A stretch of DNA of 64,000 nucleotides from Bacilli bacterium (GTDB lineage: Bacteria; Bacillota_I; Bacilli_A; ML615J-28; CAG-313). The notes beneath the pieces are model-generated. The model worked only from the letters and a program-made list of their open reading frames with translations. It did not search any database and was not told the DNA's origin. Made by a program: the position numbers and the translations under genes. The DNA lies in NCBI GenBank assembly GCA_017463365.1, contig JAFTPH010000028.1, positions 268 to 64,267 of the forward strand, in the 5' to 3' direction. Below, one piece after another: positions 881 to 54,864 of the stretch. Position 1 is the first letter of the stretch; each line of letters opens with the position of its first letter.

Positions 881-897
881 TAATGGAGGGTTTGAAA

Positions 898-2562: not shown

Positions 2563-4851
2563 ATGCGCAAGATGTTGGTTTTAACATCGCTTTTTTTGGC
2601 TTTATTTGCTATTGTTAAATTTGGTAGCGAAATGAGTGTTTCCGCAAATGGAAATGAAAACAATTATGGAGATGTAAATGAAGACGGGGTAGCTAACACA
2701 AGTGATGTAATTTATATGTTATATCACGTAATGTTTGGTAAAGATGGTTATCCGTTATATCAAGGAAATAAAACTGAAATTAATGGATTAACAGTTGGTG
2801 ACTTTAATGGTGACAAAACAGTTAATACTAAAGATGTTACTCATTTACTTTATAATGTAATGTTTGGTGATAGTAGTTATCCACTATATGTTGAAAGTAG
2901 TGAAGATAATGTTGCGCCAGAAATTATCCTTGATGGAGTAACCCAAAATGTTAATTTAAATTGGAATACCACTTTTGATCCACTTAAAGGGGTAAAAGCG
3001 ATCGATAATGTAGATGGTGATATAACAAGTGACATTGTAGTTACTCATAATATTGATAATAAAACATATGGAACATATGATGTAAAATATACAGTATCTG
3101 ATAAAGCTGGTAATAAAACGGAGTATGTTCGAAAGGTAACAGTTATGTGGAATTATGGAGTAGAATTTATTGGTCATGCGGGAAGCTATTATGGACTTAT
3201 GAATTCCGAAGAAGCAATTCTTTACGCAATCAAGAATTTAAAATATCAAGCCGTCGAAGTAGATTTAAAACAAACTAAGGATGGGGTATTTGTATTATGT
3301 CATGATGATACTTTTGCGGGATACACAATAGCTTCAACTAATTGGAGTGAATTAAAAGATGTAACTCGTACTGCCCCAAGAAGTGGAGGAATTCCTTCTC
3401 AAAATGGTTCAGTTACAAAAGATTCATATACAACTGGTTTATGTACATTAGAACGATTCTTAGAAATTTGTCGTGATAATAATGTAAAAGCGGTCATTGA
3501 ATTAAAATATTCTAATGGAATAAATAATAATGATCAATCACGTATGCAAGCTTTAATGAATATGATTGAAAATTATAATATGCGTGAAAATACTATTTTA
3601 CTTGCATCGCAATATAAATGTTTAATTTGGACAAGAGAAAATGGTTATGATGATATTGAATGTCAATATTTAGTAAATTCATGTGAAAGTGAAACAACAT
3701 TAAATAGATGTAAAGAATATAATTTTACAGTAAGTATCAATACAACTGGTAATTATTCAAATAGTGATGAATGGTTAGCTAAATACCAAGAAGCAGGTTT
3801 AAAAATCTCTACATACACATATACTCAATGGGTTGATTATAACGTTGTTCAATCATGGATTGATAAAGGGGTAGATTATGTAACTTGTGATTGGCACTTA
3901 ATGGATCAATTAGAATTACCTGTAAATTCTGGTGATGAGGTTAAAACTTATACGGTAACGTTTAAAGACCATGATGGAACAGTTTTAAAAACAGCCACTG
4001 TTAAAGAAGGACGTACTGCGGCAGCCCCTAGTGATCCACAAAGATTAGGTTATGAGTTTGCTGGTTGGGATAAGAGTATTAATAATGTAAGAGAAGACTA
4101 TGAAGTATATGCAACATACAACTTAGTTACTTATACAATTACTTATGTAAATACTTTAAATACTTTAGTTGAAAGTGAATGGGCATCAAAAGATGCATTT
4201 GCACAAGAATTCTATAGTGATTTCTTTAATTGGTTAGTAAGCAAAGCAGGAGTTCTTCCAGATATAACAAAAACAGGAGATACATATAAAATTGTTAAAA
4301 ATGGGGTAACTGTTACATTTACAAATGTAAGTGATATTTTAGGTAGTGATATATATGTTTTTGAAAAAACATTCTCTAATTATATTTATAAACCAGTTAC
4401 AAGAACAAGTGATGGAACATGTGTTATTGAAGCATCTGAAGATTATTTCTTAAATAGTGATGCTTACCGCGATAAATACAAAGAAGTAGACACAATGTTA
4501 TATAGATGTATTAAAAATCGCTATACAGGATATGATGCAACATATACACCAACATCAGCTGGAAAAATCCAAATCTTCTTTAGATTCCATCAATGGATAA
4601 AAGGAACAACAATTAATGAATTCTTACCACTTCCAAAAAAATATACTTCAACTGGAAGTAATACAGATATCGTTTTACCAACAAATCCAATTACTTATAC
4701 AATCTTAGATGAAATAGTTTTACCAAATCCAACCTCATCTTTAGAATTCTTAGGTTGGTATAGCAATGCTGATTTCACTGGTTCAAAAATCGAAAAGATT
4801 GAAAACGGAACAACTGGTAATATTGTTTTATACGGAAAATGGAATGAATAA
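2563..4851 (+). CDS. Secreted multidomain glycerophosphodiester phosphodiesterase: signal peptide, dockerin-like double Ca-loop module, DUF5011/Ig-like domain, GDPD domain, two Listeria-Bacteroides (Flg_new) repeats
   Basis: 762 aa; N-terminal hydrophobic leader; DVNEDGVANTSD and DFNGDKTVNTKD loops; HAGSYYGLMNSEEA...DLKQTKDGVFVLCHDDTF GDPD motifs; LGYEFAGWD and LEFLGWYSNADFTG Flg_new motifs; RBS GGAGG 8 nt upstream. Confidence 0.7.
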   Translation: MRKMLVLTSLFLALFAIVKFGSEMSVSANGNENNYGDVNEDGVANTSDVIYMLYHVMFGKDGYPLYQGNKTEINGLTVGDFNGDKTVNTKDVTHLLYNVMFGDSSYPLYVESSEDNVAPEIILDGVTQNVNLNWNTTFDPLKGVKAIDNVDGDITSDIVVTHNIDNKTYGTYDVKYTVSDKAGNKTEYVRKVTVMWNYGVEFIGHAGSYYGLMNSEEAILYAIKNLKYQAVEVDLKQTKDGVFVLCHDDTFAGYTIASTNWSELKDVTRTAPRSGGIPSQNGSVTKDSYTTGLCTLERFLEICRDNNVKAVIELKYSNGINNNDQSRMQALMNMIENYNMRENTILLASQYKCLIWTRENGYDDIECQYLVNSCESETTLNRCKEYNFTVSINTTGNYSNSDEWLAKYQEAGLKISTYTYTQWVDYNVVQSWIDKGVDYVTCDWHLMDQLELPVNSGDEVKTYTVTFKDHDGTVLKTATVKEGRTAAAPSDPQRLGYEFAGWDKSINNVREDYEVYATYNLVTYTITYVNTLNTLVESEWASKDAFAQEFYSDFFNWLVSKAGVLPDITKTGDTYKIVKNGVTVTFTNVSDILGSDIYVFEKTFSNYIYKPVTRTSDGTCVIEASEDYFLNSDAYRDKYKEVDTMLYRCIKNRYTGYDATYTPTSAGKIQIFFRFHQWIKGTTINEFLPLPKKYTSTGSNTDIVLPTNPITYTILDEIVLPNPTSSLEFLGWYSNADFTGSKIEKIENGTTGNIVLYGKWNE
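2671..2889 (+). other. Dockerin-like module (two DxNxDGxxNxxD loops each followed by a YMLYHVMFG-type helix and YPLY)
   Basis: residues 37-109 of the 762-aa protein. Confidence 0.6.
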
Positions 4852-22464: not shown

Positions 22465-22471
22465 GTGGATT

Positions 22472-24043: not shown

Positions 24044-24059
24044 AAAGGGGGCTTGTGCT

Positions 24060-31973: not shown

Positions 31974-31997
31974 AATTATAAAGAGGTGTTTAAAAAT

Positions 31998-34073
31998 ATG
32001 AAAAAGAAGATAATATTGTTAATCATATTGTTATTAGGATTTTTTCTAACATCATGTATTGGTGGTAATAATAATCAAGAATATATTGAAAATCCTGATG
32101 GAACAATAACTTTACAAAATTTTCAAAATATTAAAGATAAAGAATTTATTGTTCCTGAAACTTACGATGGATTAACAGTTTCCGCTATAGGAGCTAGATG
32201 TTTTCAAAATAATATAAATATTGAATCAGTTGTTTTGCCAAATACTATTAAGTCAATAGGAGCAAATGCATTTAAAGGATGTTCATCTTTGAAAAATATA
32301 AATTTACCAGATGACTTAAAATCTATTGGGGTAAGCGCTTTTTCGGATACCGATTTAGAAAATGTTGTAATACCTAATGATACTGTATTTATTGGAATGG
32401 CAGCTTTCAATGGTTGTAAAAATTTAAAAGAACTAATTCTTCCAAGTAATGTTGAAATCGAAATTGAAGATTCAGCTTTTGGTAGTTGTACATCTCTTGA
32501 AAAAATCTTTATTCCAAAGAATATCATAAAAATGGGACAATGTATATTTACAAATTGCACAGTATTAAAAGAAGTTGAAATTGAAGATGGGTTAACAATG
32601 CTTGGTTATGGAATGTTTGAAAACTGTGTGGCGCTAGAATCTATATCACTACCTAATTCTGTAAAAACAGTTGAAGCAAATGTATTTGCTGGCTGTACAA
32701 ATCTTAAAAATGTAAAATTATCTCAAAATTTACAAAATATTAGCTATGGGATGTTTTCAAGATGTACAAGTTTGACAAATATCGACATTCCTAATAATGT
32801 TACTGTAATTGAAGACAATGCTTTTGCTAATTGCATAAATTTAACTGACATTACTATTTCAGATAGCGTTAATAAAATTGGAAGAGAAGTTTTTTATGGC
32901 TGTGAAAAACTTTTAAATATTAATATTGGTAAGGGTGTTAGAGAAATTGGTTTATATGCTTTTTATAATTGCCCATCGCTTAAGATGATAAATGTTAATG
33001 AACAAAATAGTATGTATAGTTCACATGAAGGGGTATTATTCAATAAATTACAAACAAATTTAATATTATTCCCTCAATCAAAAGAAGTGAATACTTACAT
33101 TGTTCCTTCAACTGTAATAGAAATTAGTAATCTGGCATTCTGCAAAAATAATAATTTAACAACTATTATTCTCGAAGATAATTTGTTAAAAATTGGTGCT
33201 GAAGCTTTTATGGAAGCAAAAATTGAATCAATAACTCTTCCTAAAACATTAGTAGATTTAGATTTTTCAGCATTTAATGGTTGTGAATTACTACGAGAGA
33301 TTAAGGTTGATGAGGGAAACAAAACATATCATTCTGTTAATGGTAATTTATATGCTTATGGCACAATATTAGTAAAATATGTATCTAAAAATGAAAAAGT
33401 TTATGAAGTTCCTGAAGGTATTACTCACATGTTATATTGGTATAATTCTGTGGGTGAATGTCCAGAATTGGAAACAGTGTATTTACCTGAAACAATAGAA
33501 GACGTTTCTTATAAATTATTTGAGGGTTGTACATCTTTAAAATATAATGAATACGAAGGTGGGTATTATTTAGGAAGTAAAAATAATCCATATTTAGCGT
33601 TAATGTATGTAGGTAACAATAATATTACTACTTTTAAGGTTCATGATAATACAAGAATAGTTTGTAAAGATGTTTTTAAAGATTGTATAAATCTAACAGA
33701 TGTAACATTGCCTAGTAATCTTAAATTTATTGGTGAAGGAGCCTTTGAAGGTTGTACCTCGCTTGTAAAAATTGATATACCTAATTCTGTTACATATATC
33801 TATGATTGGGCATTTAGAAATTGTACCTCACTTACTACTATAACATTTCCTGAAGGAATTAATGTGGTAGAAAGAGACGTTGTAGCTGGATGTACTTCAT
33901 TAAAAGAAATTAATTTGCCAAAATCAGTAGAATTTATTTTTGAATTTGCTTTTGGAGATTGCACATCACTCGAAAAAATTAATTACCATGGTTCAATAAA
34001 TAAATGGAATGAAGTACAAAAATTTAATGATTGGGACTATAATACTGGTAATTATGTAGTTATTTATAAATAG
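31998..34073 (+). CDS. BspA-type leucine-rich-repeat (LRR_5) surface lipoprotein
   Basis: lipobox LTSC; about 20 repeats of ..C.SL..I.IP.SV..IG..AF..C; ATG 31998 preferred over in-RBS GTG 31986. Confidence 0.7.
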   Translation: MKKKIILLIILLLGFFLTSCIGGNNNQEYIENPDGTITLQNFQNIKDKEFIVPETYDGLTVSAIGARCFQNNINIESVVLPNTIKSIGANAFKGCSSLKNINLPDDLKSIGVSAFSDTDLENVVIPNDTVFIGMAAFNGCKNLKELILPSNVEIEIEDSAFGSCTSLEKIFIPKNIIKMGQCIFTNCTVLKEVEIEDGLTMLGYGMFENCVALESISLPNSVKTVEANVFAGCTNLKNVKLSQNLQNISYGMFSRCTSLTNIDIPNNVTVIEDNAFANCINLTDITISDSVNKIGREVFYGCEKLLNINIGKGVREIGLYAFYNCPSLKMINVNEQNSMYSSHEGVLFNKLQTNLILFPQSKEVNTYIVPSTVIEISNLAFCKNNNLTTIILEDNLLKIGAEAFMEAKIESITLPKTLVDLDFSAFNGCELLREIKVDEGNKTYHSVNGNLYAYGTILVKYVSKNEKVYEVPEGITHMLYWYNSVGECPELETVYLPETIEDVSYKLFEGCTSLKYNEYEGGYYLGSKNNPYLALMYVGNNNITTFKVHDNTRIVCKDVFKDCINLTDVTLPSNLKFIGEGAFEGCTSLVKIDIPNSVTYIYDWAFRNCTSLTTITFPEGINVVERDVVAGCTSLKEINLPKSVEFIFEFAFGDCTSLEKINYHGSINKWNEVQKFNDWDYNTGNYVVIYK

Positions 34074-43282: not shown

Positions 43283-46200
43283 ATGAAGTTGTTAAAAAGA
43301 ATTTTTATTATATTAATGATATTAACAAGTATCTTATTAATTAAACCAATTAGTAAGGTAGAAGCGGAAAGTGAATCTACGGGAAGTGTTGGTTTACAAT
43401 ATACGCTTAATTCAGGTGGTGCATCATATGCTGTAACAGGTATAGGTACTTGTACTGATACAAACGTTGTTATCCCAAATGAATATAATGGGTTACCGGT
43501 TACTAGTATAGAAGCAAATGCTTTTAAACATTGTAAAGATATTATAACTGTGGAAATTCCTGAGAATATAGTTGAGATTGGTGACGATGCATTTTATAGT
43601 TGTCTAAAATTGAAAGATTTAATTATTGAAGGTAATAATAATTCAATGACTATTGGTAGTTATGCATTTTATTATTGTCGCGTTTTAAATAATGTTTACT
43701 TTAAAGGAACAGTAGAAGAATGGTGTAAAATTTCTTTCAAAGACAGTTATTCAAATCCGATGAATTATACTAGTAACTTTTATATGTTAAATGAAAAAGG
43801 AGAATATAAAAAAGTTACTAAATTAGAAATTCCTAGTACTGTTACAAGTATAGGAAACTATCAATTTGCTGGTTTATATGATTTAAGGGAAGTTATTATT
43901 CCGAATACTGTAACAAGTATAGGAGATAGTGCATTTGCTGGTTGTTATAGTTTAACAAGTATTGAAATTCCTGAAAGTATAACTAAAATTAGTGATTATG
44001 CATTTTCGAGTTGTTATATTTATAATTTGGTAAACAATAGTAATTTAGGAATTAGCATAGGTTCTAGTAATTATGGAAACATTGCACATTATACGATTAA
44101 ACTAACAAATAAAGATGGTAGTGTTAAACAAAAAAATGGGGTTATGGAATATATCGAAAAAGATGGTTTTGTATTTATCAAAGAAAAAGAAGTTTATAAA
44201 TTGATAAATTATGTAGGATCTGAAGAAACAGTAACTTTGCCACTTGATATAAACGGTAATAAATATACAATATTTCAAATGAGAGGTGTTAAAAACTTAA
44301 TAATACCTGAAGGATTTACGGAAATTAATGATTATGCGTTTTATGATTGTTCAACTTTAGAAAGTGTCAAAATTCCGACAAGTGTTACTAGAATTGGCAA
44401 TTATGCTTTTAATGGATGTAAAAATTTAACAGAATTATTTATACCAAATAGCGTTGAAAATCTTGGTTCATCTGCTTTTAGTTATTGTAATAACTTAAAT
44501 AAGGTGATATTTGAAGAAAACAGCAAAATCACTTATTTTTCAGATAGACTTTTTGAAGGGAGTAAAAATTTAATTGAAATATCAATTCCTAAAGGAGTTA
44601 CTGATATTTATGGTTTATACTCTTATTGTTTTTCTACTTGTTTCGGATTAGAATCTATTGAAATACCTAGTAGTGTAAAATATATAGGAGGTCAGGCGTT
44701 TAACTATTGTGTGAGTTTAACAAATGTATATTATCAAGGGACAATTGAAGATTGGTGTAATATCTATTTTGATTCAGGAATGTTCTCAACTCCAATGCAA
44801 TGGGCAACTCATTTTTACATGTTAGATGAAAATAATGATTATTATGAAGTTACAGAAATTTTTATTCCTGATACTATAAATAGAATAAAAAACTGTCAAT
44901 TTTATGGATTTACTAATTTAGAAAAAATATATATCCCAAAAAGTGTTACATATATAGGAGATGATGCGTTATATTTTGGTTCTAATTCAACAATATATTG
45001 TGAATCTAGTTCTAAACCAAGTGAATGGAGTACCAATTGGAATCGAAGAAATTATCCTGTTGTTTGGAATAGTTGCATGCATAGATCTTGTGAGTGGATT
45101 GTTGAGAGTGAACAATCTTGTACTGAAGCAGGTTATAAGTATAAAAAATGTTCTATATGTAATTTAATTGTAGAAGAAAATAATGCTCCCGCATTAGGCC
45201 ATAATTACAATGAAAATAATAAATGTACTAATTGTGGTGATGTTAAGATAAGCGAAGGTTTGGAATATAGATATGACAAAGAAACCAATACTTATTCTGT
45301 AAAAGGTATTGGAACATGTACTGATTCAGTAATTGTTATACCAAGTGTTTATAATGAATTACCAGTAACTGAAATTTTTGAATGTGCTTTTATGAATATG
45401 ACTAACATTAAAAAGGTTATTCTTCCAGAAACAATTACGCATATAAGTTTATGGGCTTTTGATAATTGTCAAGGTTTGGAAAGTATTGTTCTTCCTAAGA
45501 GCCTTGAAAATATATCTGATAGTGCTTTTAGAGATTGTTTAAATTTAAAAAATGTTTATTATAATGGAACAATTGAAGACTGGTGTAATATTGTCCTAGA
45601 AGATACTCCTATGAATAATGGGGAATTCTTCTATATGTTAAATGAAGAAGGAGAGTACTACGAAGTAACAGAAATAGTTATTCCAGATGGTATTACGAGT
45701 ATTGGACTTAATCAATTCTATTCATTTGATAATATTACGAAAGTAACAATTCCTAATGGGGTTACAGACATAAAAATAAATGCTTTTGCTAAGTGTAAAA
45801 ATTTAATTAGTGTTAATGTGCCAAATAGTGTTACATATCTTGGTGATTACGCATTCTCCGAATGTACAAGTTTAAAAAATATTGATCTACCTAATAGTAT
45901 AAAATCTATGGGCGCAAATGTTTTCTCTTTATCTACAAGTTTAGAACAAATTGAAATACCAACAGGCCTTGAAAAAATAACGATGGGAACTTTTGCTGGA
46001 TGCACAAGTTTGACTAGTGTCGTAATACCTGATAATATCTATAAAATTGGTACTGCTGCATTCTCAGGATGTACAGGACTTACTAATGTGGAAATCTCTG
46101 GCAAAACAGAAGAAATTGAAGATTCAGTTTTCCTTCAATGTACAAGTTTAGCAAAAATTGTTATCCCATTTAGTGTTAGAATTATCGGCAGATATGCTTT

Positions 46201-47875
46201 TTCTGAATGTGAAAATTTAACAATTTATTGTGAAGCCAAATCTAAACTAGTTGGATGGGATGAAAAATGGAATGCATCTAATTGTCCGGTTGTTTGGAGT
46301 TATTGTTTACATAACTTAAGTGATTGGACAATTGATTTAGAACCGACATGCGCATTAGTTGGTCACAAATATAAGACATGTACGAAATGTAATAATGTTG
46401 TCGAAGAAGCAGAAATTGAAAAGGTTGATCATAATTTTGATGAATTAAATAAATGTGAGGTTTGTGGGGATTATAAAGAACATGTTGGGTTAAATTATAC
46501 TATCAATGCATCATCTGATGGGTATATTTTAACTAGTCTTGGAACATGTACTGATACTGTAATTAATATTCCAAGTATGTATAATGGTTTACCAGTTGTC
46601 GAAATCGGTAATAATGCCTTTGAATATAGTTCAGTCACTCTAATTAATATTCCAAATAGTGTTGTTAAGATTGGCGATTATGTCTTCCATGCAAGTAAAA
46701 ATCTTGAACAAGTATTAGTTGATACTGAAAATGAATATTATGTTAGTGTTGATGGTATCTTATTTGATAAAGCAATTACAGAATTAATTGTTTATCCAGC
46801 TAAGAAAACAGGTAGTGAATATAATATTCCAAATACGGTAACTAATATTAAAGATTCCGCTTTTGCTTATAATGGACAATTAACTAAAATTACTATTCCT
46901 GAAAGTGTAAAGACGATTACTGATTATGCATTCTATAGATGTATATTATTAATTGAAATTATTATTCCAAATAGTGTTGAATCAATTGGTTCAAATGCAT
47001 TTGGTGAATGTCAAAATTTAGAAAAAATTACTTTTAAAGAAAACTCTAAAATAACAGAGATAGCTGATTGGTCTTTCTATAATTGTAAAAAATTAACAAG
47101 TTTTGAAATTCCAGAAAATGTTACTAAAATTGGAGTAAATGCGTTTGGAAATTGTAGCAGTTTAATCGAAATTATAATTGTAATAAAAATTACAATCATT
47201 AAGAATAATGCATTCTCAAACTGTAAAAATCTTAAAATTTTATGTGAAGCAGAAATGCAACCGAGTGGTTTCGAAAGTAACTGGAATAAGAGTGGTTGTG
47301 AAACAGTTTGGGGTTATTGTGAGCATATAATAAGTGATTGGATTATTGATAAAAAAGCAACATGTAAGGAACAAGGACATAAATATCAAGAATGTACAAA
47401 ATGTCATGATGTATTAAATGAAGAAAAAATTTCGATTTTAGATCATACTTATGATCAATATGTTGTAGCTGATAAATATTTAGCTAGTAAAGCTGATTGT
47501 TTAAATAAAGCTAAGTATTACTTTAGTTGTGTATGTGGTGAAAAGGGAACTACAACATTTAATTACGGTGAACTTGGAGAGCATAACTATGTTGATAGAA
47601 AATGTACAGTATGTAATATCGACGAATATACATTAGGTGATGTAGACAATAATGGAAATATCAGTACAAGTGATGTAACATATTTACTATATCATTTAAT
47701 GTTTGGTGAGGCAATGTATCCTGTAAATCAACCAGTTGATTACAATAATGATGGATTAACAAATACAAATGATGTAATCTATTTGTTATATCATATAATG
47801 TTTGGAGAAACACAATATCCATTATATCTTCCTAAAACTAATTCATTTGAAATAAAAGATGAGGAAGAAGAATAA
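43283..47875 (+). CDS. Giant secreted BspA-type LRR protein built of three super-repeats, each ending in a Cys-rich knot, with C-terminal dockerin-like module
   Basis: signal peptide ...KPISKVEA/ESE; three modules starting GLQYTLNSGG (43390), GLEYRYDKET (45254), GLNYTINASS (46486) each with GTCTD; Cys-rich blocks about 45060-45250, 46285-46480, 47305-47600. Confidence 0.75.
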   Translation: MKLLKRIFIILMILTSILLIKPISKVEAESESTGSVGLQYTLNSGGASYAVTGIGTCTDTNVVIPNEYNGLPVTSIEANAFKHCKDIITVEIPENIVEIGDDAFYSCLKLKDLIIEGNNNSMTIGSYAFYYCRVLNNVYFKGTVEEWCKISFKDSYSNPMNYTSNFYMLNEKGEYKKVTKLEIPSTVTSIGNYQFAGLYDLREVIIPNTVTSIGDSAFAGCYSLTSIEIPESITKISDYAFSSCYIYNLVNNSNLGISIGSSNYGNIAHYTIKLTNKDGSVKQKNGVMEYIEKDGFVFIKEKEVYKLINYVGSEETVTLPLDINGNKYTIFQMRGVKNLIIPEGFTEINDYAFYDCSTLESVKIPTSVTRIGNYAFNGCKNLTELFIPNSVENLGSSAFSYCNNLNKVIFEENSKITYFSDRLFEGSKNLIEISIPKGVTDIYGLYSYCFSTCFGLESIEIPSSVKYIGGQAFNYCVSLTNVYYQGTIEDWCNIYFDSGMFSTPMQWATHFYMLDENNDYYEVTEIFIPDTINRIKNCQFYGFTNLEKIYIPKSVTYIGDDALYFGSNSTIYCESSSKPSEWSTNWNRRNYPVVWNSCMHRSCEWIVESEQSCTEAGYKYKKCSICNLIVEENNAPALGHNYNENNKCTNCGDVKISEGLEYRYDKETNTYSVKGIGTCTDSVIVIPSVYNELPVTEIFECAFMNMTNIKKVILPETITHISLWAFDNCQGLESIVLPKSLENISDSAFRDCLNLKNVYYNGTIEDWCNIVLEDTPMNNGEFFYMLNEEGEYYEVTEIVIPDGITSIGLNQFYSFDNITKVTIPNGVTDIKINAFAKCKNLISVNVPNSVTYLGDYAFSECTSLKNIDLPNSIKSMGANVFSLSTSLEQIEIPTGLEKITMGTFAGCTSLTSVVIPDNIYKIGTAAFSGCTGLTNVEISGKTEEIEDSVFLQCTSLAKIVIPFSVRIIGRYAFSECENLTIYCEAKSKLVGWDEKWNASNCPVVWSYCLHNLSDWTIDLEPTCALVGHKYKTCTKCNNVVEEAEIEKVDHNFDELNKCEVCGDYKEHVGLNYTINASSDGYILTSLGTCTDTVINIPSMYNGLPVVEIGNNAFEYSSVTLINIPNSVVKIGDYVFHASKNLEQVLVDTENEYYVSVDGILFDKAITELIVYPAKKTGSEYNIPNTVTNIKDSAFAYNGQLTKITIPESVKTITDYAFYRCILLIEIIIPNSVESIGSNAFGECQNLEKITFKENSKITEIADWSFYNCKKLTSFEIPENVTKIGVNAFGNCSSLIEIIIVIKITIIKNNAFSNCKNLKILCEAEMQPSGFESNWNKSGCETVWGYCEHIISDWIIDKKATCKEQGHKYQECTKCHDVLNEEKISILDHTYDQYVVADKYLASKADCLNKAKYYFSCVCGEKGTTTFNYGELGEHNYVDRKCTVCNIDEYTLGDVDNNGNISTSDVTYLLYHLMFGEAMYPVNQPVDYNNDGLTNTNDVIYLLYHIMFGETQYPLYLPKTNSFEIKDEEEE
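47633..47872 (+). other. C-terminal dockerin-like module of the 1530-aa protein (DVDNNGNISTSD...YLLYHLMFG..YPV / DYNNDGLTNTND...YLLYHIMFG..YPLY)
   Basis: two EF-hand-like 12-residue loops with D/N at 1,3,5,9,12 each followed by helix. Confidence 0.6.
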
Positions 47876-47891
47876 AATTATGATGAATAAA

Positions 47892-47925
47892 AAGGGCTAA
47901 CATATTAGTTAGCCCTTAATTTTTA
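47892..47925 (+). terminator. Rho-independent terminator (aagggctaac/gttagccctt)
   Basis: 10-bp perfect stem, 6-nt loop, T-run. Confidence 0.75.
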
Positions 47926-48156
47926 AAATGTAAACATATATAAATTAATAATTTTGTTAAATTATAGCATATATTTTATAATTTGTAATCTAAAATACTC
48001 AGTTTTTACTTAACTTTAGCGATTTTTCTTAATTTCCATAAATGTTTACTTTTATAGAATTTTTATTATTTTTTAACTATAAAAAATAAAATATTTGTCA
48101 TATGAATATAAATATGATACAATATAATTAATTAGATATACAAGGAGGATTACAAG

Positions 48157-51100
48157 ATGAAAAAAGTATTAAAAGTTTTTATTTGTATGTTTATGATATC
48201 TTTAGGATTTTTAATTTCAGAGGTCATTTTAAAAGTAAATGCTGAAACAGTTGATATCAAAGGAGTGGAGTATACCTTTGAGTTAAGTGAGGATGGTACT
48301 TATTATATTATGACAGATGTTGATATTGATTCATCTTTAGGTTCAATAACAATTCCATCTAAGTATAATGGTCTTCCAATTAAGGAAATAAAAGGAGATG
48401 CTAAATTTTCTAATTGGAATATAAAAAGCTATTATTTTGAAGGAACATTTACCGATTGGTGTAATATTTCCTTTGAAAATGCAGGTAATAATCCATGTTT
48501 TCATTCTGGTGATATCTATATGTTAAACAAAACAGGGGATTATGAGTTATTAACCGAAATAAATATACCTGATGGTACCACAAAGATTAGTAAATATCAA
48601 TTTTGTGGTTTTTATGATAATTTAAATAAAATTATCCTTCCTAAAAGTTTAAAAAGTATAGGGGAGTCGGCTTTTAATGGGTTAGGTAAATGTGATGTTT
48701 ACTATCAAGGAACAATTGAAGATTGGTTAAAAATTGATTTTTCTAATGCATCAGCTAATCCATTATATTCATCTGGTTATAGATTATATGTTAAAAATAG
48801 TTTAAATGAATATCATATTGTGACAGATATTACAATACCAAGTGATATAACAGAGGTGTCAGTTGTTAATTTTATTGGTCTAAATGATGTAGTAAATTTA
48901 ACAATTCCCAAAAGTGTTGTAAAATTTGAAAAAAATTTTGGTTATGAACTTGATGAGTTAAAAAATGTTTATTATGAGGGAACAATTGAAGATTGGTGTA
49001 ATATTACTTTTGAAGATAATAGTAATCCTATGGGTTATGGAGATAACTTTTATTTAAAAACAGGTTCTTATTATTATAAACCAACCGATTTAGTTATTCC
49101 AAATACAGTTAAAATAATTAATCAATATCAATTTTATGGTTTTTCACAAATAGAAAAGATAACTATTTCTAGTGGTGTAACCGAAATAAAGCAATATGCG
49201 TTTACTAATTGTACAAAAGTAAAAGAAATAAGTCTTCCAAATACTTTAACAATGGTTGGGAGAAGTGCATTTTATGATTGTGATAATTTATCTATGTTAG
49301 TATTCCCTGAAGGGGTAAAAACAATTGATAGTAATGCTTTTGGAAATTGTACAAAATTAAAAACCGTTTATTTACCAAGTACTCTTGAAAAAATTGATAA
49401 CTCTTATGTTCCAGCCACAACGCTATATTATAATGGAACAGTTGACAAATGGTTAGAAGTAGATGATCGAATAACTGGTAGTTATGTAAAAGAGTTATAT
49501 TGTTTAGATAGTAAAGGGGTTTATCAATCAACTAGTAATTTAGTAATTCCGGAGGGAGTAACTTCAATTAAAGCTAGCGCATTTGATTATTGTCAATGGA
49601 TTAAAACTGTTACTCTTCCAAGTAGCTTAGTTTCAATTGATAAAAATGCTTTCTATGAGTCTTCATTTATTACAGATGTATATTATGAAGGAACAATTGA
49701 TGATTGGTTTAATTTAACAATTGATGTTGGTGGTAATCCTGTAGAATGGGCCGACAATATCCATTTTAAAGATGAAAATGGAGAATATCAAAAAGTAGTT
49801 AATCTAGTAATTCCTGAGGGAATAACAGAAATAAAAGGTCCAGGAGTATCATATTTTTATAATTTAAAAAGTATTACATTGCCGAAGAGTTTGAAAAAAA
49901 TTGATGGAAAGGTGTTTTTATACTGTAGTAATTTAGAAACAGTATATTATAATGGAACAATTGAAGATTGGTGCGCCATCGAATTAGGAATAACACCAAT
50001 GGGTTTTGCCGAAGAGTTTTATTTTCTTAATAATGGTACATATGAAAAAGTAACTGAAATTGAAATACCGGAATCGGTAAAAAATATTGGTAAATATCAA
50101 TTTTATGGTTTTTATGATGTTAAATGTGTTACAATTTCAAGTAATGTAGAAAGTATTGGTGAAAAAGCCTTTGCTTATATGACGGATCTTGTAAAAGTGG
50201 TATTCAAAAAAAATAATAATTCCGTTAAGATTGATTCTTATGCTTTTGCTTCTCAAAATTTAATTGATGTTTATTATGATGGTACAATAGAAGATTGGTG
50301 TAAAATAGAATTTGATGATTATTATTCAAATCCGCTATATTATGCTAAGTATTTTTTTATGAAAGATCAAATGAATGAATATTATGAAGTAACAGAATTG
50401 GAAATTCCAAAAACAGTAACGAATATTGGTGATTATCAATTCTATGGATTTGATTACTTAAAGAAAGTCACTATTCCAAGTGGAATAACAAGTATTGATG
50501 ATGGTGCTTTCTGTAATAGTGGAAATTTAAGAGAAATTATTTTTGAAGATGTAAATTCCTTGGAATATTTAAGTGAAAGTGCTTTTTATAATTGTAATAA
50601 ATTGGAAAATGTTTATATTAATAAATATAGTGAAAAATGGGCATCTTTAATTGGCTTTACTTATTTAAATAGTTCAACAATAAATGTTTATTTTAAAAAC
50701 GATCAAGGAGAATACATAACTAAAAATGAAATTATTATTCCTAACGGAGTAGAAGAGATTAAAGAAAGAGAATTTGCTAATGCGGAAAAATTAGAAAAAA
50801 TTGTAATTTCAAATAGTGTTAAGAAGATTTCAAAAGGAGCCTTCTATAATAATATTTCTTTGAAAGATGTTTATTATAATGGCACAATAGAAGAATGGTG
50901 TAATATTACATTTGAAGATTACATGGCTAATCCAATGTCTTATGCTGAACACTTTTATATGTTAAATGATAATAATGAATATTATGAAGTAACAGAAATA
51001 GTAATCCCAGATACGATAACTTCTATAAAAGAATGCATATTCTTTGGATTTAATAATGTAACAAAAGTTGTAATTCCAAACAATATTACTAGCATTGAAA

Positions 51101-54100
51101 AAAATGCATTCACAGGATGTACATCGCTAATTGATATAGAGATACCAAATAGTATTAAAAGTATTGGTAATTATGCTTTTTCAGGATGTACTAGCTTAAT
51201 AAGTATTGTTTTACCGAACAGCCTTGAGGCTATTGGTGAGTTTGCATTTAGTAGTTGTACTAATTTAAAAAATATTGAATTCCAACAAGGAACATTGTTA
51301 AAAATATTAGAAAGAGGTATTTTTAATAGTTGTGCTTTAGAAAAAATAGAAATTCCAAGCTCTATTGAAAAAATTGCTAATGGCGCATTTAGAAATTGCT
51401 CTTCACTTAAAGAAATAATTTTTAGCGAAGATGGTAGTTTGCTTAGTATAGATTCTTATGCATTTGAAGGATTAACATCTTTAGAAAAAATTGTTTTACC
51501 TAAAACAATTGAAGAACTAGGTGGATATATTTTTTCTGAGTGTACAAGTTTGAAAGAAATATATATATCAAACAACATTACAGATGTTAAATCAAGTTTT
51601 GATGATTGTGAAGATCTTGAAAAAGTATATTTTGATGGTGATATAACAGACTGGATTAAAATAAATTACAATGATTTTTGGGATGTATATAAGGGGGAAT
51701 TTGAATTATATCTTCCAAATGAAGAAGGAGTTTATGAATTAGTTACTGATTTGGTTATACCAGAAGGTATACAAATATTGGTTAATGGATCGCTAATTAA
51801 CAATTTAAAAAATATAAATAGTGTTACTATTCCAAAAGGAATGGTAGTAGAAAAAGCTATTTTTGGTACTACAAAAACAATAAATTCACTTTACTATAAT
51901 GGTACAGTTAGGGATTGGTTATTAAATAATACGCGTGAAAATTATTACGGAAGTTTAGAAAAGATTGAACATATCTATTTTAAAGATTTAACTGGAAATT
52001 ATTATGAAGTAACTGAGTTAGTAATTCCATCAGGAATTGAAAAAATATCATATCGAGCATTTTATGGTATGAAAAACTTGAAAAAAGTTGTAATATCTAG
52101 TAGTGTTACTTCAATTGAACCTTACGCTTTCTGTTATTGTACAAATCTTGAAGAGGTAGTTTTTGAAGAAAATAGTAGTTTAAAGAATCTTGCCGGATAT
52201 GCGTTTAGAGAATGTACAAATCTGAGAAATATTGTTTTACCTGATAGTTTAGAGAATATTAATTGGGAAGCTTTTCAACAATGTAGTTCGCTTTATTATA
52301 TTAATATTCCTCAAAATCTAAAAAATGTTAGTAATAGTTATACATATGGAGTTCAGTTAAAAGGAATATATAATCCATACAATGTGTCTACTGATATTCT
52401 TGGAGATATTGTAAATTATTTAACAGTTGTTTGTAATAGAAAAGTATCTGATTTTATAGTAGTAGATGAAGATGGTTATGTATTTATTAATGATGGATAC
52501 CAATATGTACTAATTGATTACCTTGGTGAAGGTGGTGAAATAACCTTACCATCGTTTGTTAAAGGGCAAACTTATTATGTTAAAAGTAGTGTCTTCAAAG
52601 GAAGAGAAGATATTACGAAAGTTGTGCTTCCAAAAACAGTTACAAAGTACGGATATTTATTGTTTGAAAGATGCGCTAATTTGAAGGAAGTGGTAATTCC
52701 TAAGACATTAAAAGAAATTCCAGAAGGCATGTTCTATGGTTGTAAATCATTAGAAAGTGTTGTTATTTCTGAAGATAGTATGTTAGAAATAATTGGTGAT
52801 GATGCATTCTGGGGTTGTGAAAATCTAAGAGAGTTTGTTTTACCGAAAAATTTAAAAGAAATTGGAGTTGCTGCTTTTAGTGATTGTAATAAGTTGCGGG
52901 TAATATATAATTTCTCAACGTATGAGGTAAAAATAGGAGCATCATTCCAAGCAGGTTATTTAAGTCATTATGTTGATGTTATTTGTACATCATATAATGA
53001 TGAAGGATACATGGAAACCGATGATGGATTTGTATTCTTAAAATTAGATGGTGAATATATTTTAATTGATTACCGTGGAACTAGTACAGAAGTATCATTG
53101 CCAAGAGATTTTAGAGGTAATTCATATAAAATTGAAAAGCCAATTTTATCAGGAAATCAAGCGATTGAAACAGTTTATATTCCAAATACTATTACGGAAT
53201 TAAATCATGCATTCTTCGAAAATTGTGCAAATCTAAAAAAGATAGTTTTTGAAACAGGAAGTAGCATTACTAAATTTGGTAGTTACACTTTCATAAATTG
53301 TAAAAGTTTGAAAGAGGTAATATTACCGGAAGGATTAATTGATTTAGGCGAATATACTTTCCAAGGTTGTCAAAGTTTAGAAACAATTGATTTACCAGAA
53401 AGTCTAGAAATCATTAGAACATCGGCATTTTATAATTGTACTAGTTTAAAAGAAATTATAATTCCTAATAACGTTAATACTATGTATGTATATGTTTTCA
53501 GTGAATGTACAAGTTTAGAAAAAGTTAAATTACCAGATAATCTAAAAGACATTAATTACAGTTTATTCAGAAACTGTTCAAGTTTAACAAATATTGAACT
53601 TCCAAATGGTTTAGAAGAAATAGATGATTATGCTTTCTCTGGATGTACAGGCTTAAAATCAATAGTTATTCCTAATACGGTTACAAGTTTAGGAATGGAA
53701 TGCTTTAAAGATTGTACAAATTTAGAGTATGTTAATATGTCGGATGGTCTTACAGAAGGAGCTCAAGCATTATTTTCAGGATGTACAAGTCTTGTAGAAA
53801 TTGTTTTCCCACAAAATATTGAATATATTTCTGGATCAATGTTTAGGGGATGTACAAGTTTAACAGAAATCATTCTTCCTAGTACTGTTACATCAATTGG
53901 TTGGAATGCTTTTTCGGGATGTACAAATTTATCAAATGTTGTAATCTCTCAAAATGTTAAAACTATTGGTGAAAAAGCATTTATTAATTGTACAAATTTA
54001 AATAGTATTGTAATTCCTAATTCAGTTAAAGTAATAAATAATTTAGGAATTACTGATAAGGATTCAATAAATTTATATTACGATGGAACATTAGAAGAAT

Positions 54101-54864
54101 GGTTTAAAGTAGATGTTGAAGCTCAACTAATTGATAGTTTCAATGTAAATCATCATTTCTATATCAAAAATGAAAATAACGAATATATTGAATTATTAGA
54201 ATTAATACTTCCAAATGGTATTGAAGCACTTAAGAAAAATAATTTATCAGTATTTAAGAATGTTAATAAATTGGTTATTTCAAAGGATGTAAAGGCGTTT
54301 TCAGCAAGTACACTGGATGTATTACCAAATCTTAAAGAATTAGAAGTTGTTGAAGATAATGAATATATCACAATGGTAGATGGTAATCTATATACAAAAA
54401 ATTTATCTGAATTAATTAGATATTTTGATAAAGAAGATGTTAAAACCTTCGTAATTCCAGAAGAAGTTAGAGAGATTGAAAGTTATGCCTTTAAAGGTAA
54501 TCAATATTTAGAAGAAATTACTATTCAGCATAAAGTGTATTATATAAATAGTAATGCTTTTGAAAAAGATAATAATATTTTATTTAAAGTATACCGAGAT
54601 ACATATGCATTTGATAGAGTAAAGGATCTAAAATTTAGATATGAATTTATTAAGTCTTCTGATGAAATTGGTGATATTGATGGAAGTTTAGGAATTACTA
54701 TTAATGATGCGGTATATATGTTATATCACACAATGTTTGGTCAAAAATCATATCCAGTAAATCAAAGATTAGATTTTAATGATGACGGAACACCAGATGT
54801 AAATGATGCAGTATATATGTTATATAATGTATTGTTTGGAGAAGAACAATATCCATTATATTAA
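48157..54864 (+). CDS. Giant (2235 aa) secreted BspA-type LRR protein with about 12-15 copies of a YYNGTIEDWCNIxFED..NPM..FYML unit and C-terminal dockerin-like module
   Basis: N-terminal hydrophobic leader; repeated unit seen at protein and DNA level; C-terminal DIDGSLGITIND...YMLYHTMFG / DFNDDGTPDVND...YMLYNVLFG. Confidence 0.75.
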   Translation: MKKVLKVFICMFMISLGFLISEVILKVNAETVDIKGVEYTFELSEDGTYYIMTDVDIDSSLGSITIPSKYNGLPIKEIKGDAKFSNWNIKSYYFEGTFTDWCNISFENAGNNPCFHSGDIYMLNKTGDYELLTEINIPDGTTKISKYQFCGFYDNLNKIILPKSLKSIGESAFNGLGKCDVYYQGTIEDWLKIDFSNASANPLYSSGYRLYVKNSLNEYHIVTDITIPSDITEVSVVNFIGLNDVVNLTIPKSVVKFEKNFGYELDELKNVYYEGTIEDWCNITFEDNSNPMGYGDNFYLKTGSYYYKPTDLVIPNTVKIINQYQFYGFSQIEKITISSGVTEIKQYAFTNCTKVKEISLPNTLTMVGRSAFYDCDNLSMLVFPEGVKTIDSNAFGNCTKLKTVYLPSTLEKIDNSYVPATTLYYNGTVDKWLEVDDRITGSYVKELYCLDSKGVYQSTSNLVIPEGVTSIKASAFDYCQWIKTVTLPSSLVSIDKNAFYESSFITDVYYEGTIDDWFNLTIDVGGNPVEWADNIHFKDENGEYQKVVNLVIPEGITEIKGPGVSYFYNLKSITLPKSLKKIDGKVFLYCSNLETVYYNGTIEDWCAIELGITPMGFAEEFYFLNNGTYEKVTEIEIPESVKNIGKYQFYGFYDVKCVTISSNVESIGEKAFAYMTDLVKVVFKKNNNSVKIDSYAFASQNLIDVYYDGTIEDWCKIEFDDYYSNPLYYAKYFFMKDQMNEYYEVTELEIPKTVTNIGDYQFYGFDYLKKVTIPSGITSIDDGAFCNSGNLREIIFEDVNSLEYLSESAFYNCNKLENVYINKYSEKWASLIGFTYLNSSTINVYFKNDQGEYITKNEIIIPNGVEEIKEREFANAEKLEKIVISNSVKKISKGAFYNNISLKDVYYNGTIEEWCNITFEDYMANPMSYAEHFYMLNDNNEYYEVTEIVIPDTITSIKECIFFGFNNVTKVVIPNNITSIEKNAFTGCTSLIDIEIPNSIKSIGNYAFSGCTSLISIVLPNSLEAIGEFAFSSCTNLKNIEFQQGTLLKILERGIFNSCALEKIEIPSSIEKIANGAFRNCSSLKEIIFSEDGSLLSIDSYAFEGLTSLEKIVLPKTIEELGGYIFSECTSLKEIYISNNITDVKSSFDDCEDLEKVYFDGDITDWIKINYNDFWDVYKGEFELYLPNEEGVYELVTDLVIPEGIQILVNGSLINNLKNINSVTIPKGMVVEKAIFGTTKTINSLYYNGTVRDWLLNNTRENYYGSLEKIEHIYFKDLTGNYYEVTELVIPSGIEKISYRAFYGMKNLKKVVISSSVTSIEPYAFCYCTNLEEVVFEENSSLKNLAGYAFRECTNLRNIVLPDSLENINWEAFQQCSSLYYINIPQNLKNVSNSYTYGVQLKGIYNPYNVSTDILGDIVNYLTVVCNRKVSDFIVVDEDGYVFINDGYQYVLIDYLGEGGEITLPSFVKGQTYYVKSSVFKGREDITKVVLPKTVTKYGYLLFERCANLKEVVIPKTLKEIPEGMFYGCKSLESVVISEDSMLEIIGDDAFWGCENLREFVLPKNLKEIGVAAFSDCNKLRVIYNFSTYEVKIGASFQAGYLSHYVDVICTSYNDEGYMETDDGFVFLKLDGEYILIDYRGTSTEVSLPRDFRGNSYKIEKPILSGNQAIETVYIPNTITELNHAFFENCANLKKIVFETGSSITKFGSYTFINCKSLKEVILPEGLIDLGEYTFQGCQSLETIDLPESLEIIRTSAFYNCTSLKEIIIPNNVNTMYVYVFSECTSLEKVKLPDNLKDINYSLFRNCSSLTNIELPNGLEEIDDYAFSGCTGLKSIVIPNTVTSLGMECFKDCTNLEYVNMSDGLTEGAQALFSGCTSLVEIVFPQNIEYISGSMFRGCTSLTEIILPSTVTSIGWNAFSGCTNLSNVVISQNVKTIGEKAFINCTNLNSIVIPNSVKVINNLGITDKDSINLYYDGTLEEWFKVDVEAQLIDSFNVNHHFYIKNENNEYIELLELILPNGIEALKKNNLSVFKNVNKLVISKDVKAFSASTLDVLPNLKELEVVEDNEYITMVDGNLYTKNLSELIRYFDKEDVKTFVIPEEVREIESYAFKGNQYLEEITIQHKVYYINSNAFEKDNNILFKVYRDTYAFDRVKDLKFRYEFIKSSDEIGDIDGSLGITINDAVYMLYHTMFGQKSYPVNQRLDFNDDGTPDVNDAVYMLYNVLFGEEQYPLY
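54654..54861 (+). other. C-terminal dockerin-like module of the 2235-aa protein
   Basis: as above. Confidence 0.6.

What the first reader, a model, noticed from the sequence alone, without database searches (positions are those of the whole stretch)
47633..47872. A shared dockerin-like module on three secreted proteins implies an undescribed cohesin-type surface-display system
Three proteins carry a duplicated segment with EF-hand-like 12-residue loops (D/N at positions 1,3,5,9,12: DVNEDGVANTSD, DFNGDKTVNTKD, DVDNNGNISTSD, DYNNDGLTNTND, DIDGSLGITIND, DFNDDGTPDVND). Each loop is followed by a helix with an unusually conserved signature [VA][IV]Y[ML]LYHxMFGxxxYP[LV]. It lies at the N-terminus (2671-2889) of the GDPD enzyme and at the C-terminus of the 1530-aa (47633-47872) and 2235-aa (54654-54861) LRR giants. 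These giants have signal peptides but no LPXTG, lipobox or C-terminal TM. A dockerin is therefore the only visible anchoring device, which predicts a cohesin-bearing, membrane- or wall-anchored scaffold encoded elsewhere. The host looks like an AT-rich Erysipelotrichia/Mollicute-like organism and not a cellulolytic clostridium. The module pairs catalytic (phosphodiesterase) and adhesin-like (LRR) cargo. It could therefore represent a lineage-specific surface-assembly system and not a cellulosome.
Basis: partly seen in the sequence, partly recalled or inferred. Interest (0 to 1): 0.7.

Follow-up and report, generated by a model that had tools for sequence, protein, structure and literature searches.

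The report
Dockerin anchor modules on secreted proteins
Three secreted proteins of an uncultured rumen bacterium carry a genuine dockerin, a small calcium-binding plug that normally snaps into a cohesin socket. They are probably hung on the cell surface by this well-known connector, but the socket itself was not found in the DNA available.

Summary
Three ORFs carry a duplicated Ca-loop-plus-helix module: a GDPD enzyme (2563-4851) and BspA-type LRR giants (43283-47875, 48157-54864). The module is a real type-I-like dockerin. Its profile hits almost only dockerin chains in the PDB, and an AlphaFold model (pLDDT 95) matches only dockerins.

It belongs to a large, distinctive subfamily (DA[IV]YLLYHxxFGxxxYP; about 2,600 50%-identity clusters at E<=1e-10). 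The ten related genome loci recovered were all gut or rumen Clostridia. The subfamily is physically tied to cohesins:
- 40 of the 130 representatives with a strong dockerin hit carry a cohesin in the same chain.
- A conserved two-gene cassette pairs a membrane-anchored, collagen-like protein ending in a cohesin with a Coh-Doc-LRR giant.

The host is a 29% GC "Bacilli bacterium" MAG. In that MAG a fourth carrier, an Endonuclease I, sits beside a paralogue that has a lipobox instead of the dockerin. This supports an anchoring role.

No cohesin was found in about 120 kb of host DNA, so the partner remains a prediction. Non-cellulosomal cohesin-dockerin systems and LRR-dockerin proteins are already described. 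I rate this a new member of a known kind, of moderate interest.

The parts
2563..4851 (+). Gene for a 762-aa secreted enzyme: signal peptide, N-terminal dockerin, Bact_surface_Ig-like, GDPD phosphodiesterase, Flg_new repeats. NCBI MBQ8292479.1, annotated only as 'InlB B-repeat-containing protein'.
   Evidence: ORF list; translation; Pfam GDPD 48.6 bits, Flg_new 59.2, Ig-like 49.6; accession.
2668..2892 (+). Dockerin module 1. Two Ca-loop-plus-helix repeats joined by a 10-residue longer linker, placed directly after the signal peptide.
   Evidence: Pfam Dockerin_1 25.2 bits against GA 22.9 when scanned alone; family HMM 95.0 bits; loop ligands D-N-D-N-D in both repeats.
43283..47875 (+). Gene for a 1530-aa secreted BspA-type LRR protein with Cys-rich spacers and a C-terminal dockerin. 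NCBI MBQ8292514.1, 'leucine-rich repeat protein'.
   Evidence: Pfam LRR_5 616.7 bits in 10 stretches; translation; signal peptide only, no other anchor.
47633..47830 (+). Dockerin module 2 (the flagged feature): LGDVDNNGNISTSDVTYLLYHLMFGEAMYPVNQPVDYNNDGLTNTNDVIYLLYHIMFGETQYPLY.
   Evidence: Family HMM 108.8 bits; AlphaFold2 pLDDT 95.1 with helices at residues 14-26 and 47-59; Foldseek against PDB gives dockerins for the top 33 hits.
47831..47872 (+). 14-residue acidic tail (LPKTNSFEIKDEEEE) after the dockerin. The LPKTN string is not a sortase signal because no hydrophobic or basic tail follows.
48157..54864 (+). Gene for a 2235-aa secreted BspA-type LRR protein ending in a dockerin.
   Evidence: Pfam LRR_5 949.6 bits in 17 stretches; translation.
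54667..54861 (+). Dockerin module 3, at the extreme C-terminus. Its first loop is degenerate (DIDGSLGITIND; Ser at position 5, Thr at position 9).
   Evidence: Family HMM 101.1 bits; no Pfam Dockerin_1 hit when scanned alone; loop residues.
31986..34073 (+). Comparison feature, not a dockerin carrier: an LRR protein of the same BspA type that is anchored by a lipobox (LTSC) instead of a dockerin.
   Evidence: Translation; lipobox scan.

Best explanation
The segment at 47633-47830 and its siblings at 2668-2892 and 54667-54861 encode a genuine type-I-like dockerin. It has two tandem calcium-binding F-hand loops, each followed by a helix, folded into the compact dockerin module. It belongs to a large, sequence-distinct subfamily with consensus GDvDGDGkVdtdDA[IV]YLLYHv[ML]FGeedYP in both repeats. 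In this rumen 'Bacilli bacterium' MAG the module is attached to secreted proteins that have no other anchor: a glycerophosphodiester phosphodiesterase, two giant BspA-type LRR proteins and, on another contig, an Endonuclease I. The most likely function is a non-covalent, Ca-dependent plug that docks these proteins onto a cohesin-bearing partner at the cell surface, doing the job a lipid anchor does for their paralogues. Because the two repeats resemble each other, either helix face could engage the cohesin (dual binding mode). Shown here: homology and fold identity with dockerins; family-wide physical coupling of this dockerin subtype to cohesins; the lipobox/dockerin swap between paralogues; absence of other anchors. 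Inferred: Ca binding, cohesin binding, surface location, and the existence of a cohesin in this genome.
For: A profile of the module against PDB sequences returns dockerins almost exclusively: every hit at E<0.15, 28 sequences, best 2y3n_B at E=4.6e-7. The AlphaFold2 model has pLDDT 95.1. In Foldseek against PDB the top 33 matches are all dockerins, with prob about 1.0, TM about 0.6 and rmsd 2.0-2.5 A for the best-fitting ones. An exhaustive HMMER search finds 7,848 cluster representatives at E<=1e-3 and 2,607 at E<=1e-10. Of the 152 proteins analysed (the 150 listed plus two earlier hits), 110 have the module at the extreme C-terminus. The consensus comes from 133 modules. Of 130 representatives with a strong dockerin hit, 40 also contain a cohesin, mostly as a contiguous Coh-Doc tandem. 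Pfam Cohesin scores above its gathering threshold in 9 of 10 sampled. The Coh-Doc model's top 50 PDB matches are all cohesins. In 11 loci from Clostridia MAGs and gut metagenomes, a gene with an N-terminal TM segment or lipobox, collagen repeats and a C-terminal cohesin directly precedes a gene with signal peptide, cohesin, this dockerin and LRR_5. In the same MAG as the window (accession MBQ8292244.1 against MBQ82924xx-5xx; same samples; 29.4% GC), tandem Endonuclease_1 paralogues differ in that one has a lipobox (FFITGC) and the other a signal peptide plus N-terminal dockerin. The three window carriers have only a signal peptide.
Against: No cohesin was detected in the window, in the rest of the 71.8/86.5-kb contig, or in the 12.2 kb read (L023) of the 35-kb second contig. 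This holds for precomputed Pfam, for the subfamily HMM and for an iterated cohesin HMM. Pfam Dockerin_1 is below its gathering threshold for two of the three modules. The first loop of the 2235-aa protein's module is degenerate. Orphan dockerins without a known cohesin partner are common in the literature (my recollection of Peer et al. 2009; the paper could not be read, so this is own knowledge). Surface location and Ca dependence were not tested.
Confidence: 0.62

Rival explanations
1. Orphan dockerins used between species. The Bacilli host encodes no cohesin of its own, and its dockerin-tagged adhesin-like LRR proteins and scavenging enzymes plug into cohesins displayed by neighbouring Clostridia, which carry the matching cohesin subfamily on membrane-anchored stalks.
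For: All ten related genome loci recovered for this dockerin subtype are Clostridia, and the cohesins found next to them are clostridial. No cohesin was found in about 120 kb of the host. The LRR giants are absent from the syntenic region of a close relative with 92% identical SecA, so they are accessory genes.
Against: Only about 120 kb of the host genome was examined. The carriers' GC content (27-30%) matches the host. The lipobox/dockerin paralogue swap suggests attachment to the organism's own surface. The genome scan used patterns taken from the window's own variant, so its taxonomic spread is biased.
Confidence: 0.13
2. A dockerin fold without a cohesin partner. The module acts only as a Ca-dependent folding or stability element, or as a self-association element, on secreted proteins.
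For: No partner was found in the available host DNA. A weak EF-hand_1 similarity exists (13 bits). Many dockerin-like modules in non-cellulolytic genomes have no demonstrated partner (own knowledge).
Against: The helix residues are strongly conserved across thousands of proteins and many cargo types (Y15 93%, L16-17 98-99%, F22 91%, Y27/P28 95-98%). The module sits at either terminus. About 31% of the top representatives carry a cohesin in the same chain. These features fit a conserved interaction surface better than a generic stabiliser.
Confidence: 0.12
3. The module binds a non-protein ligand at the envelope or in the environment, such as a membrane glycolipid, wall polymer or host glycan, instead of a cohesin.
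For: Nothing from the tools points to it. It is raised only because no cohesin was seen and the host may be Mollicute-like.
Against: None of the solved dockerin structures matched here is described as a carbohydrate- or lipid-binding module. The subfamily co-occurs with cohesins.
Confidence: 0.05

Closest known systems
Type I dockerin modules of clostridial and ruminococcal cellulosomes (Pfam PF00404; e.g. PDB 1ohz_B, 2vn5_B, 4fl4_A, 6kgc_B)
   Same: Two tandem segments, each with a 12-residue D/N-rich Ca loop (positions 1, 3, 5, 9, 12) and a following helix. The predicted fold matches (TM about 0.6, rmsd 2.0-2.5 A for the best-fitting hits). The position is usually C-terminal. There is internal two-fold sequence symmetry. 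In relatives the module is encoded together with cohesins.
   Different: The helix is one residue longer before the conserved Gly and carries an aromatic-rich signature, A[IV]YLLYHxxFGxxxYP, in both repeats. Pfam scores are near or below the gathering threshold. The cargo is not carbohydrate-active. The host is a low-GC Bacilli MAG. No cohesin is known for this organism yet.
Non-enzymatic dockerin proteins of Ruminococcus flavefaciens FD-1 (28 LRR-dockerin and 10 transglutaminase-dockerin proteins; internally symmetric group 4 dockerins that bind wall-anchored ScaE; PMC2930009)
   Same: A rumen bacterium with the signal peptide-LRR-dockerin architecture and symmetric repeats. The authors already suggested a cell-surface structuring role unrelated to fibre digestion. 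A relative found here (L007) is a transglutaminase-dockerin.
   Different: A different dockerin sequence group and a different class of host. In FD-1 the cohesin partners are known. Here the LRRs are of the BspA (LRR_5) type in 1,500-2,200-aa giants.
Specialised non-cellulosomal cohesin-dockerin assemblies: R. bromii amylosome (PMC4611034) and Limousia mucinolysome (PMC12997984)
   Same: The cohesin-dockerin connector is reused to organise secreted proteins for a task other than cellulose degradation in gut anaerobes.
   Different: Those systems assemble glycoside hydrolases on identified scaffoldins. Here the cargo is a phosphodiesterase, a nuclease and adhesin-like LRR proteins, and no scaffoldin has been identified.
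EF-hand Ca-binding motifs (PF00036)
   Same: A 12-residue D/N-rich loop followed by a helix.
   Different: There is no entering helix. EF-hand_1 scores 13 bits against GA 25.4. The profile hits with E<0.15 are all dockerins, and the structural matches with probability above 0.2 are all dockerins.

Membership tests
Type I dockerin (PF00404) | Two tandem segments of about 22 residues, each a 12-residue Ca-binding loop with D/N/S/T at positions 1, 3, 5, 9, 12 followed by an alpha-helix | tested here: met
   Loop residues are D-N-D-N-D or close variants in 5 of 6 loops, and D-D-S-T-D in the sixth. The AlphaFold2 model shows helices starting at loop position 10 in both repeats.
Type I dockerin (PF00404) | Significant match to the curated family model | tested here: inconclusive
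   Scanned alone, the scores are 25.2 bits (GDPD module, above GA 22.9), 16.6 bits (1530-aa protein) and no hit (2235-aa protein). In the full proteins the scores are 20.6, 14.0 and none. Relatives of the same subfamily reach 30-64 bits.
Type I dockerin (PF00404) | Homology to experimentally solved dockerins | tested here: met
   A profile search against PDB sequences gives dockerin chains for every hit at E<0.15 (28 sequences), best E=4.6e-7.
Type I dockerin (PF00404) | Dockerin three-dimensional fold | tested here: met
   The model has pLDDT 95.1. The Foldseek PDB top 33 matches are all dockerins, with prob 0.9-1.0 for the first 31.
Type I dockerin (PF00404) | Ca-dependent binding to a cohesin | not testable with these tools
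   This needs recombinant protein or a multimer prediction with a candidate partner. The only indirect support is that 40 of 130 subfamily representatives carry a cohesin in the same chain.
Cohesin-dockerin surface-assembly system | A cohesin-bearing scaffold encoded in the same genome | tested here: not met
   No PF00963 hit and no subfamily or iterated cohesin HMM hit in the window, in contig scaffold_799/641, or in the 12.2-kb locus L023 read from scaffold_2646. Only about 120 kb of the MAG was accessible, so this is a negative result for the available DNA and not for the genome.
Cohesin-dockerin surface-assembly system | Scaffold anchored to membrane or wall | tested here: inconclusive
   Met in relatives only. 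The upstream gene in L001, L002 and L003 has an N-terminal TM segment or lipobox, collagen repeats and a C-terminal cohesin. It was not observed in the host.
Cellulosome | Dockerins borne by carbohydrate-active enzymes, and a scaffoldin with CBM | tested here: not met
   The cargo domains are GDPD, Endonuclease_1, LRR_5, Flg_new and an Ig-like domain. No GH, CE, PL or CBM domain occurs on the carriers or among the annotated neighbours.
EF-hand (PF00036/PF13499) | Helix-loop-helix with an entering helix, and a match to the family model | tested here: not met
   EF-hand_1 scores 13.0 bits against GA 25.4 for one module only. The model has no helix before the loops.
Sortase (LPXTG) or lipoprotein anchoring | LPXTG plus a hydrophobic and basic C-terminal tail, or a lipobox Cys after the signal peptide | tested here: not met
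   the three carriers have no lipobox, and LPKTN is followed by SFEIKDEEEE. Lipoboxes are present in neighbouring non-dockerin proteins (31986-34073 and 58489-59931).

The most novel reading that the evidence does not exclude
The YLLYH-type dockerin and its matching cohesin subfamily form a large, so far unnamed, non-cellulosomal surface-assembly network in gut and rumen Firmicutes. Its parts would include membrane-anchored collagen-like stalks tipped with a cohesin, Coh-Doc tandem 'connector' units and giant BspA-LRR cargo. The network would have spread into a reduced, Mollicute-like Bacilli lineage, where it replaces lipoprotein anchoring for scavenging enzymes (a nuclease and a glycerophosphodiesterase). 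Alternatively, it lets that organism plug its adhesins into the cohesins of neighbouring Clostridia. A TAG-recoded, phage-like tail-fibre protein carrying the same dockerin (P0016) would then be exploiting those surface cohesins as receptors.
Probability: 0.2. Interest if true: 0.72.

Novelty: new member of a known kind. Interest (0 to 1): 0.42.

Why it matters
The three window carriers and the nuclease are annotated in GenBank only as 'leucine-rich repeat protein', 'InlB B-repeat-containing protein' or 'endonuclease'. Pfam scores the module near or below threshold, so this dockerin subtype is largely invisible to routine annotation.

Recognising it does three things:
- It gives a testable answer to how giant BspA-type LRR proteins and scavenging enzymes are held on the surface of an uncultured low-GC rumen Bacilli.
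- It points to a specific cohesin subfamily as the partner to look for.
- It adds nuclease and phosphodiesterase cargo to the growing list of non-cellulosomal uses of the cohesin-dockerin connector.

The connector principle itself is well established, so the advance is one of scope and not of kind.

Tried and rejected
- The genome scan with the 8-sequence alignment A2 failed because no stretch was conserved enough. It was repeated with A1, whose patterns are biased towards the window's own variant.
- The JGI metagenome scan returned only six human-gut, UMGS824-like Coh-Doc loci and no low-GC relative.
- I looked for a host cohesin in several ways, all negative: precomputed Pfam for the whole contig, the A3 HMM and a four-round iterated cohesin HMM on six-frame translations of the window and the host loci, and the same models on loci of relatives and other hits.
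- P0112 (TM anchor, two cohesins, dockerin, AT-rich-looking composition) was considered as the host's scaffoldin. I rejected it because its contig has 42.6% GC.
- The loci of two SecA relatives (77% and 92% identity) contain neither dockerin nor cohesin.
- The IMG/VR scan and the INPHARED tblastn search for the module found nothing.
- Rfam found nothing in the window.
- Literature searches pairing dockerin with RF39, Mollicutes or Erysipelotrichaceae, and with collagen-like or BspA, were uninformative. Peer et al. 2009 is not held.
Full report
**Observation**

- 2563-4851, 762 aa
- 43283-47875, 1530 aa
- 48157-54864, 2235 aa

The third range is out of frame. The in-frame module is 54667-54861.

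A six-frame regex for the helix signature hits only these six repeats in the window. An HMM built from the family scores the three modules at 95-109 bits.

Each carrier has a single N-terminal hydrophobic segment that reads as a signal peptide. None has a lipobox or a C-terminal TM segment. The LPKTN string in the tail of the 1530-aa protein is followed by an acidic sequence, not by a sortase-type tail.

**What the module is**

Pfam gives only borderline Dockerin_1 matches: 25.2 bits for the GDPD module alone (GA 22.9), 16.6 bits for the 1530-aa module and none for the third. NCBIfam names no domain there.

Three independent tests settle the question:
- A profile of the module searched against all PDB sequences returns dockerins almost exclusively. 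Every hit at E<0.15 (28 sequences) is a dockerin, the best being 2y3n_B at E=4.6e-7. Calmodulin-type EF-hands appear only at E>0.1.
- An AlphaFold2 model of the 1530-aa protein's module, built on a 59-sequence alignment, is very confident (pLDDT 95.1). It shows two helices, each beginning at loop position 10.
- Foldseek against the PDB gives dockerins for the first 33 matches. The first 31 have prob 0.9-1.0, TM is about 0.6, and rmsd is 2.0-2.5 A for the best-fitting ones.

The module is therefore a type-I-like dockerin and not a generic EF-hand.

**The family**

An exhaustive HMMER search of 1.84 billion cluster representatives finds 7,848 proteins at E<=1e-3 and 2,607 at E<=1e-10. I analysed 152 proteins (the 150 listed plus two earlier hits). 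In 110 the module is at the extreme C-terminus, in 6 it is at the N-terminus, and in 7 it starts near residue 160. Another 24 are low-scoring multi-repeat proteins.

The consensus from 133 modules is strongly conserved in both repeats: GDvDGDGkVdtdDA[IV]YLLYHv[ML]FGeedYP(V/L). A13 is 93-95% conserved, Y15 93-95%, L16 and L17 98-99%, F22 91-93%, and Y27 and P28 95-98%.

By helical periodicity, positions 11, 15, 18 and 22 lie on one face of the helix. In canonical dockerins, as I recall, that face contacts the cohesin, so this last step is inference.

Carriers recovered from GTDB genomes are all Clostridia MAGs (Oscillospiraceae, Acutalibacteraceae, Clostridium sp.). They are mostly BspA-LRR/Flg_new giants, plus a transglutaminase. 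The scan patterns came from the window's own variant, so this taxonomic picture is biased.

**Link to cohesins**

In five genome loci and six metagenome loci, the dockerin follows an N-terminal domain of about 125 aa. A profile of that domain hits only cohesins in the PDB (10 of 10, best E=4.9e-5). It also passes the Pfam Cohesin gathering threshold when the N-terminal fragment is scanned alone (27-32 bits).

The gene immediately upstream in all these loci encodes a protein of about 1,100 aa. In the three read in full it has an N-terminal TM segment or a lipobox (LLGSC in L002), collagen triple-helix repeats, a Flg_new repeat and a C-terminal cohesin-like domain. That domain gives Pfam 17.7-20.2 bits and subfamily HMM E values of 1e-6 to 1e-11.

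Iterating the cohesin HMM over all proteins fetched shows that 40 of 130 representatives with a strong dockerin also contain a cohesin. Usually the cohesin sits directly against the dockerin. Pfam confirms Cohesin above threshold in 9 of 10 sampled.

An AlphaFold2 model of a minimal Coh-Doc protein (P0038; pLDDT 79) matches only cohesins among its top 50 PDB hits.

This dockerin subtype is thus part of real cohesin-dockerin systems.

**The host**

The window is ENA metagenome scaffold_799 (71.8 kb). A twin contig of 86.5 kb occurs in a second sample. Judging by the sample prefix XIEF21 (my inference), both samples are probably ruminant gastro-intestinal metagenomes.

The window's SecA is 100% identical to GenBank MBQ8292522.1, 'MAG ... 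[Bacilli bacterium]'. All named relatives at 70-77% identity carry the same label. prfB (RF2) is present, so UGA is presumably a stop codon.

GenBank annotates the two window carriers looked up merely as 'leucine-rich repeat protein' and 'InlB B-repeat-containing protein'.

A fourth carrier from the same MAG was found among the representatives. P0091 (MBQ8292244.1) is a 310-aa Endonuclease_1 with a signal peptide and an N-terminal dockerin. It lies on a 35-kb contig of 29.4% GC from the same samples. Its tandem paralogue, 264 aa, has a lipobox (FFITGC) and no dockerin. The window shows the same contrast among LRR proteins: 31986-34073 carries the lipobox LTSC, while the two giants carry dockerins.

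I read this exchange of a lipid anchor for a dockerin between paralogues as the best evidence in this organism that the module serves surface retention.

The carriers' GC content (27-30%) matches the host. The LRR giants are missing from the syntenic region upstream of secA in a relative with 92% identical SecA (GCA_054298555.1). They are therefore accessory genes.

**What is missing**

No cohesin was detected in the window, in the remainder of the contig, or in the 12.2 kb read from the second contig. Precomputed Pfam, the subfamily HMM and the iterated HMM all agree on this. One candidate scaffoldin (P0112) belongs to a 42.6% GC organism.

Only about 120 kb of the MAG could be reached with these tools. 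The existence of a host cohesin therefore remains a prediction.

**Mechanism**

I judge the following most likely (confidence about 0.6). The proteins are exported by Sec. The dockerin folds around two Ca ions. It then docks non-covalently onto a cohesin on a membrane-anchored scaffold, displaying nutrient-scavenging enzymes (a phosphodiesterase and a nuclease) and adhesin-like LRR giants.

The rivals are:
- orphan dockerins that plug into the cohesins of neighbouring Clostridia (0.13)
- a partner-less Ca-dependent stability or self-association module (0.12)
- binding to a non-protein ligand (0.05)

**Comparison with what is known**

The cohesin-dockerin connector outside cellulosomes is established. 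R. flavefaciens FD-1 has 28 LRR-dockerin and 10 transglutaminase-dockerin proteins. It also has symmetric group 4 dockerins that bind wall-anchored ScaE, and the authors suggested a surface-structuring role (PMC2930009). R. bromii amylosomes (PMC4611034) and Limousia mucinolysomes (PMC12997984) are further non-cellulosomal uses.

The new elements here are the distinct sequence subtype that annotation misses, the nuclease and GDPD cargo, and the Bacilli host. I found no paper describing the YLLYH signature, the collagen-like cohesin stalk or dockerins in Mollicute-like Bacilli, but the searches covered open-access text only.

**Verdict**

This is a real dockerin, correctly spotted. The surface-display reading is plausible and now has a concrete precedent. 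The partner in this organism is unproven, and the claim of an 'undescribed system' is overstated. I rate it a new member of a known kind, with interest 0.42.

Noticed in passing
L023:455-1249 and L023:1317-2249 (second contig of the same MAG, ERZ28654276 scaffold_2646): Tandem Endonuclease_1 paralogues. The first is a lipoprotein (lipobox FFITGC). The second has a signal peptide plus an N-terminal dockerin of the window's type. It looks like a natural swap of anchoring device.
   Followed up: yes
L001:6168-13978, L002:6130-14053, L003:6085-14665 (also L004, L005, L017-L022): A conserved two-gene cassette in Clostridia MAGs and human-gut contigs. Gene A has a TM segment or lipobox, collagen triple-helix repeats, 'KSAYELAVENGYxGTxxEWL' repeats, Flg_new and a C-terminal cohesin. 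Gene B has a signal peptide, a cohesin, a YLLYH dockerin, a Cys-rich region, a Ser/Thr-rich region, LRR_5 and Flg_new. I found no description of it in the literature searched.
   Followed up: partly
Proteins P0038, P0040, P0059, P0039, P0008, P0063, P0112 and others (representative search): Contiguous Coh-Doc tandems with essentially no linker occur in about 31% of the top representatives of this dockerin subfamily, including a minimal 226-aa protein with only signal peptide, Coh and Doc. Whether they bind within one chain or polymerise head to tail is unresolved.
   Followed up: partly
L031:37-5274 (Logan ERR9717577 contig, 30.8% GC) = P0016: A 1745-aa protein with a C-terminal Peptidase_S74 domain (tail-spike intramolecular chaperone) and an internal YLLYH dockerin (Dockerin_1, 30.5 bits). 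Its gene contains 23 in-frame TAG codons, which suggests a stop-codon-recoded phage whose tail fibre carries a dockerin.
   Followed up: partly
window 43283-54864 compared with L028:1-10000 (GCA_054298555.1): The two LRR-dockerin giants are absent upstream of secA in a relative with 92% identical SecA. That region instead holds the ATP synthase operon and a Big_2 lipoprotein. The giants are a variable, accessory insertion.
   Followed up: partly
window 57054-57695: A 213-aa BspA-type LRR protein with no signal peptide lies just downstream of the giants. It may be a gene fragment or a recombination cassette for LRR variation.
   Followed up: no
window 13860-14545 (minus strand) and 14625-15032: A RelE-family toxin with an HTH_3/MqsA-like antitoxin pair lies next to an HSP20 gene (precomputed Pfam).
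   Followed up: no
window 828-2288: A Schlafen/AlbA_2 plus HATPase_c_4 plus HTH protein lies immediately upstream of the GDPD-dockerin gene.
   Followed up: no
window 22222-25553: The groES-like ORF is unusually short (80 aa) and has no Pfam Cpn10 hit. It precedes a normal GroEL (E=7.7e-134 against PDB GroEL). After GroEL comes a 497-aa coiled-coil protein with no family match.
   Followed up: partly
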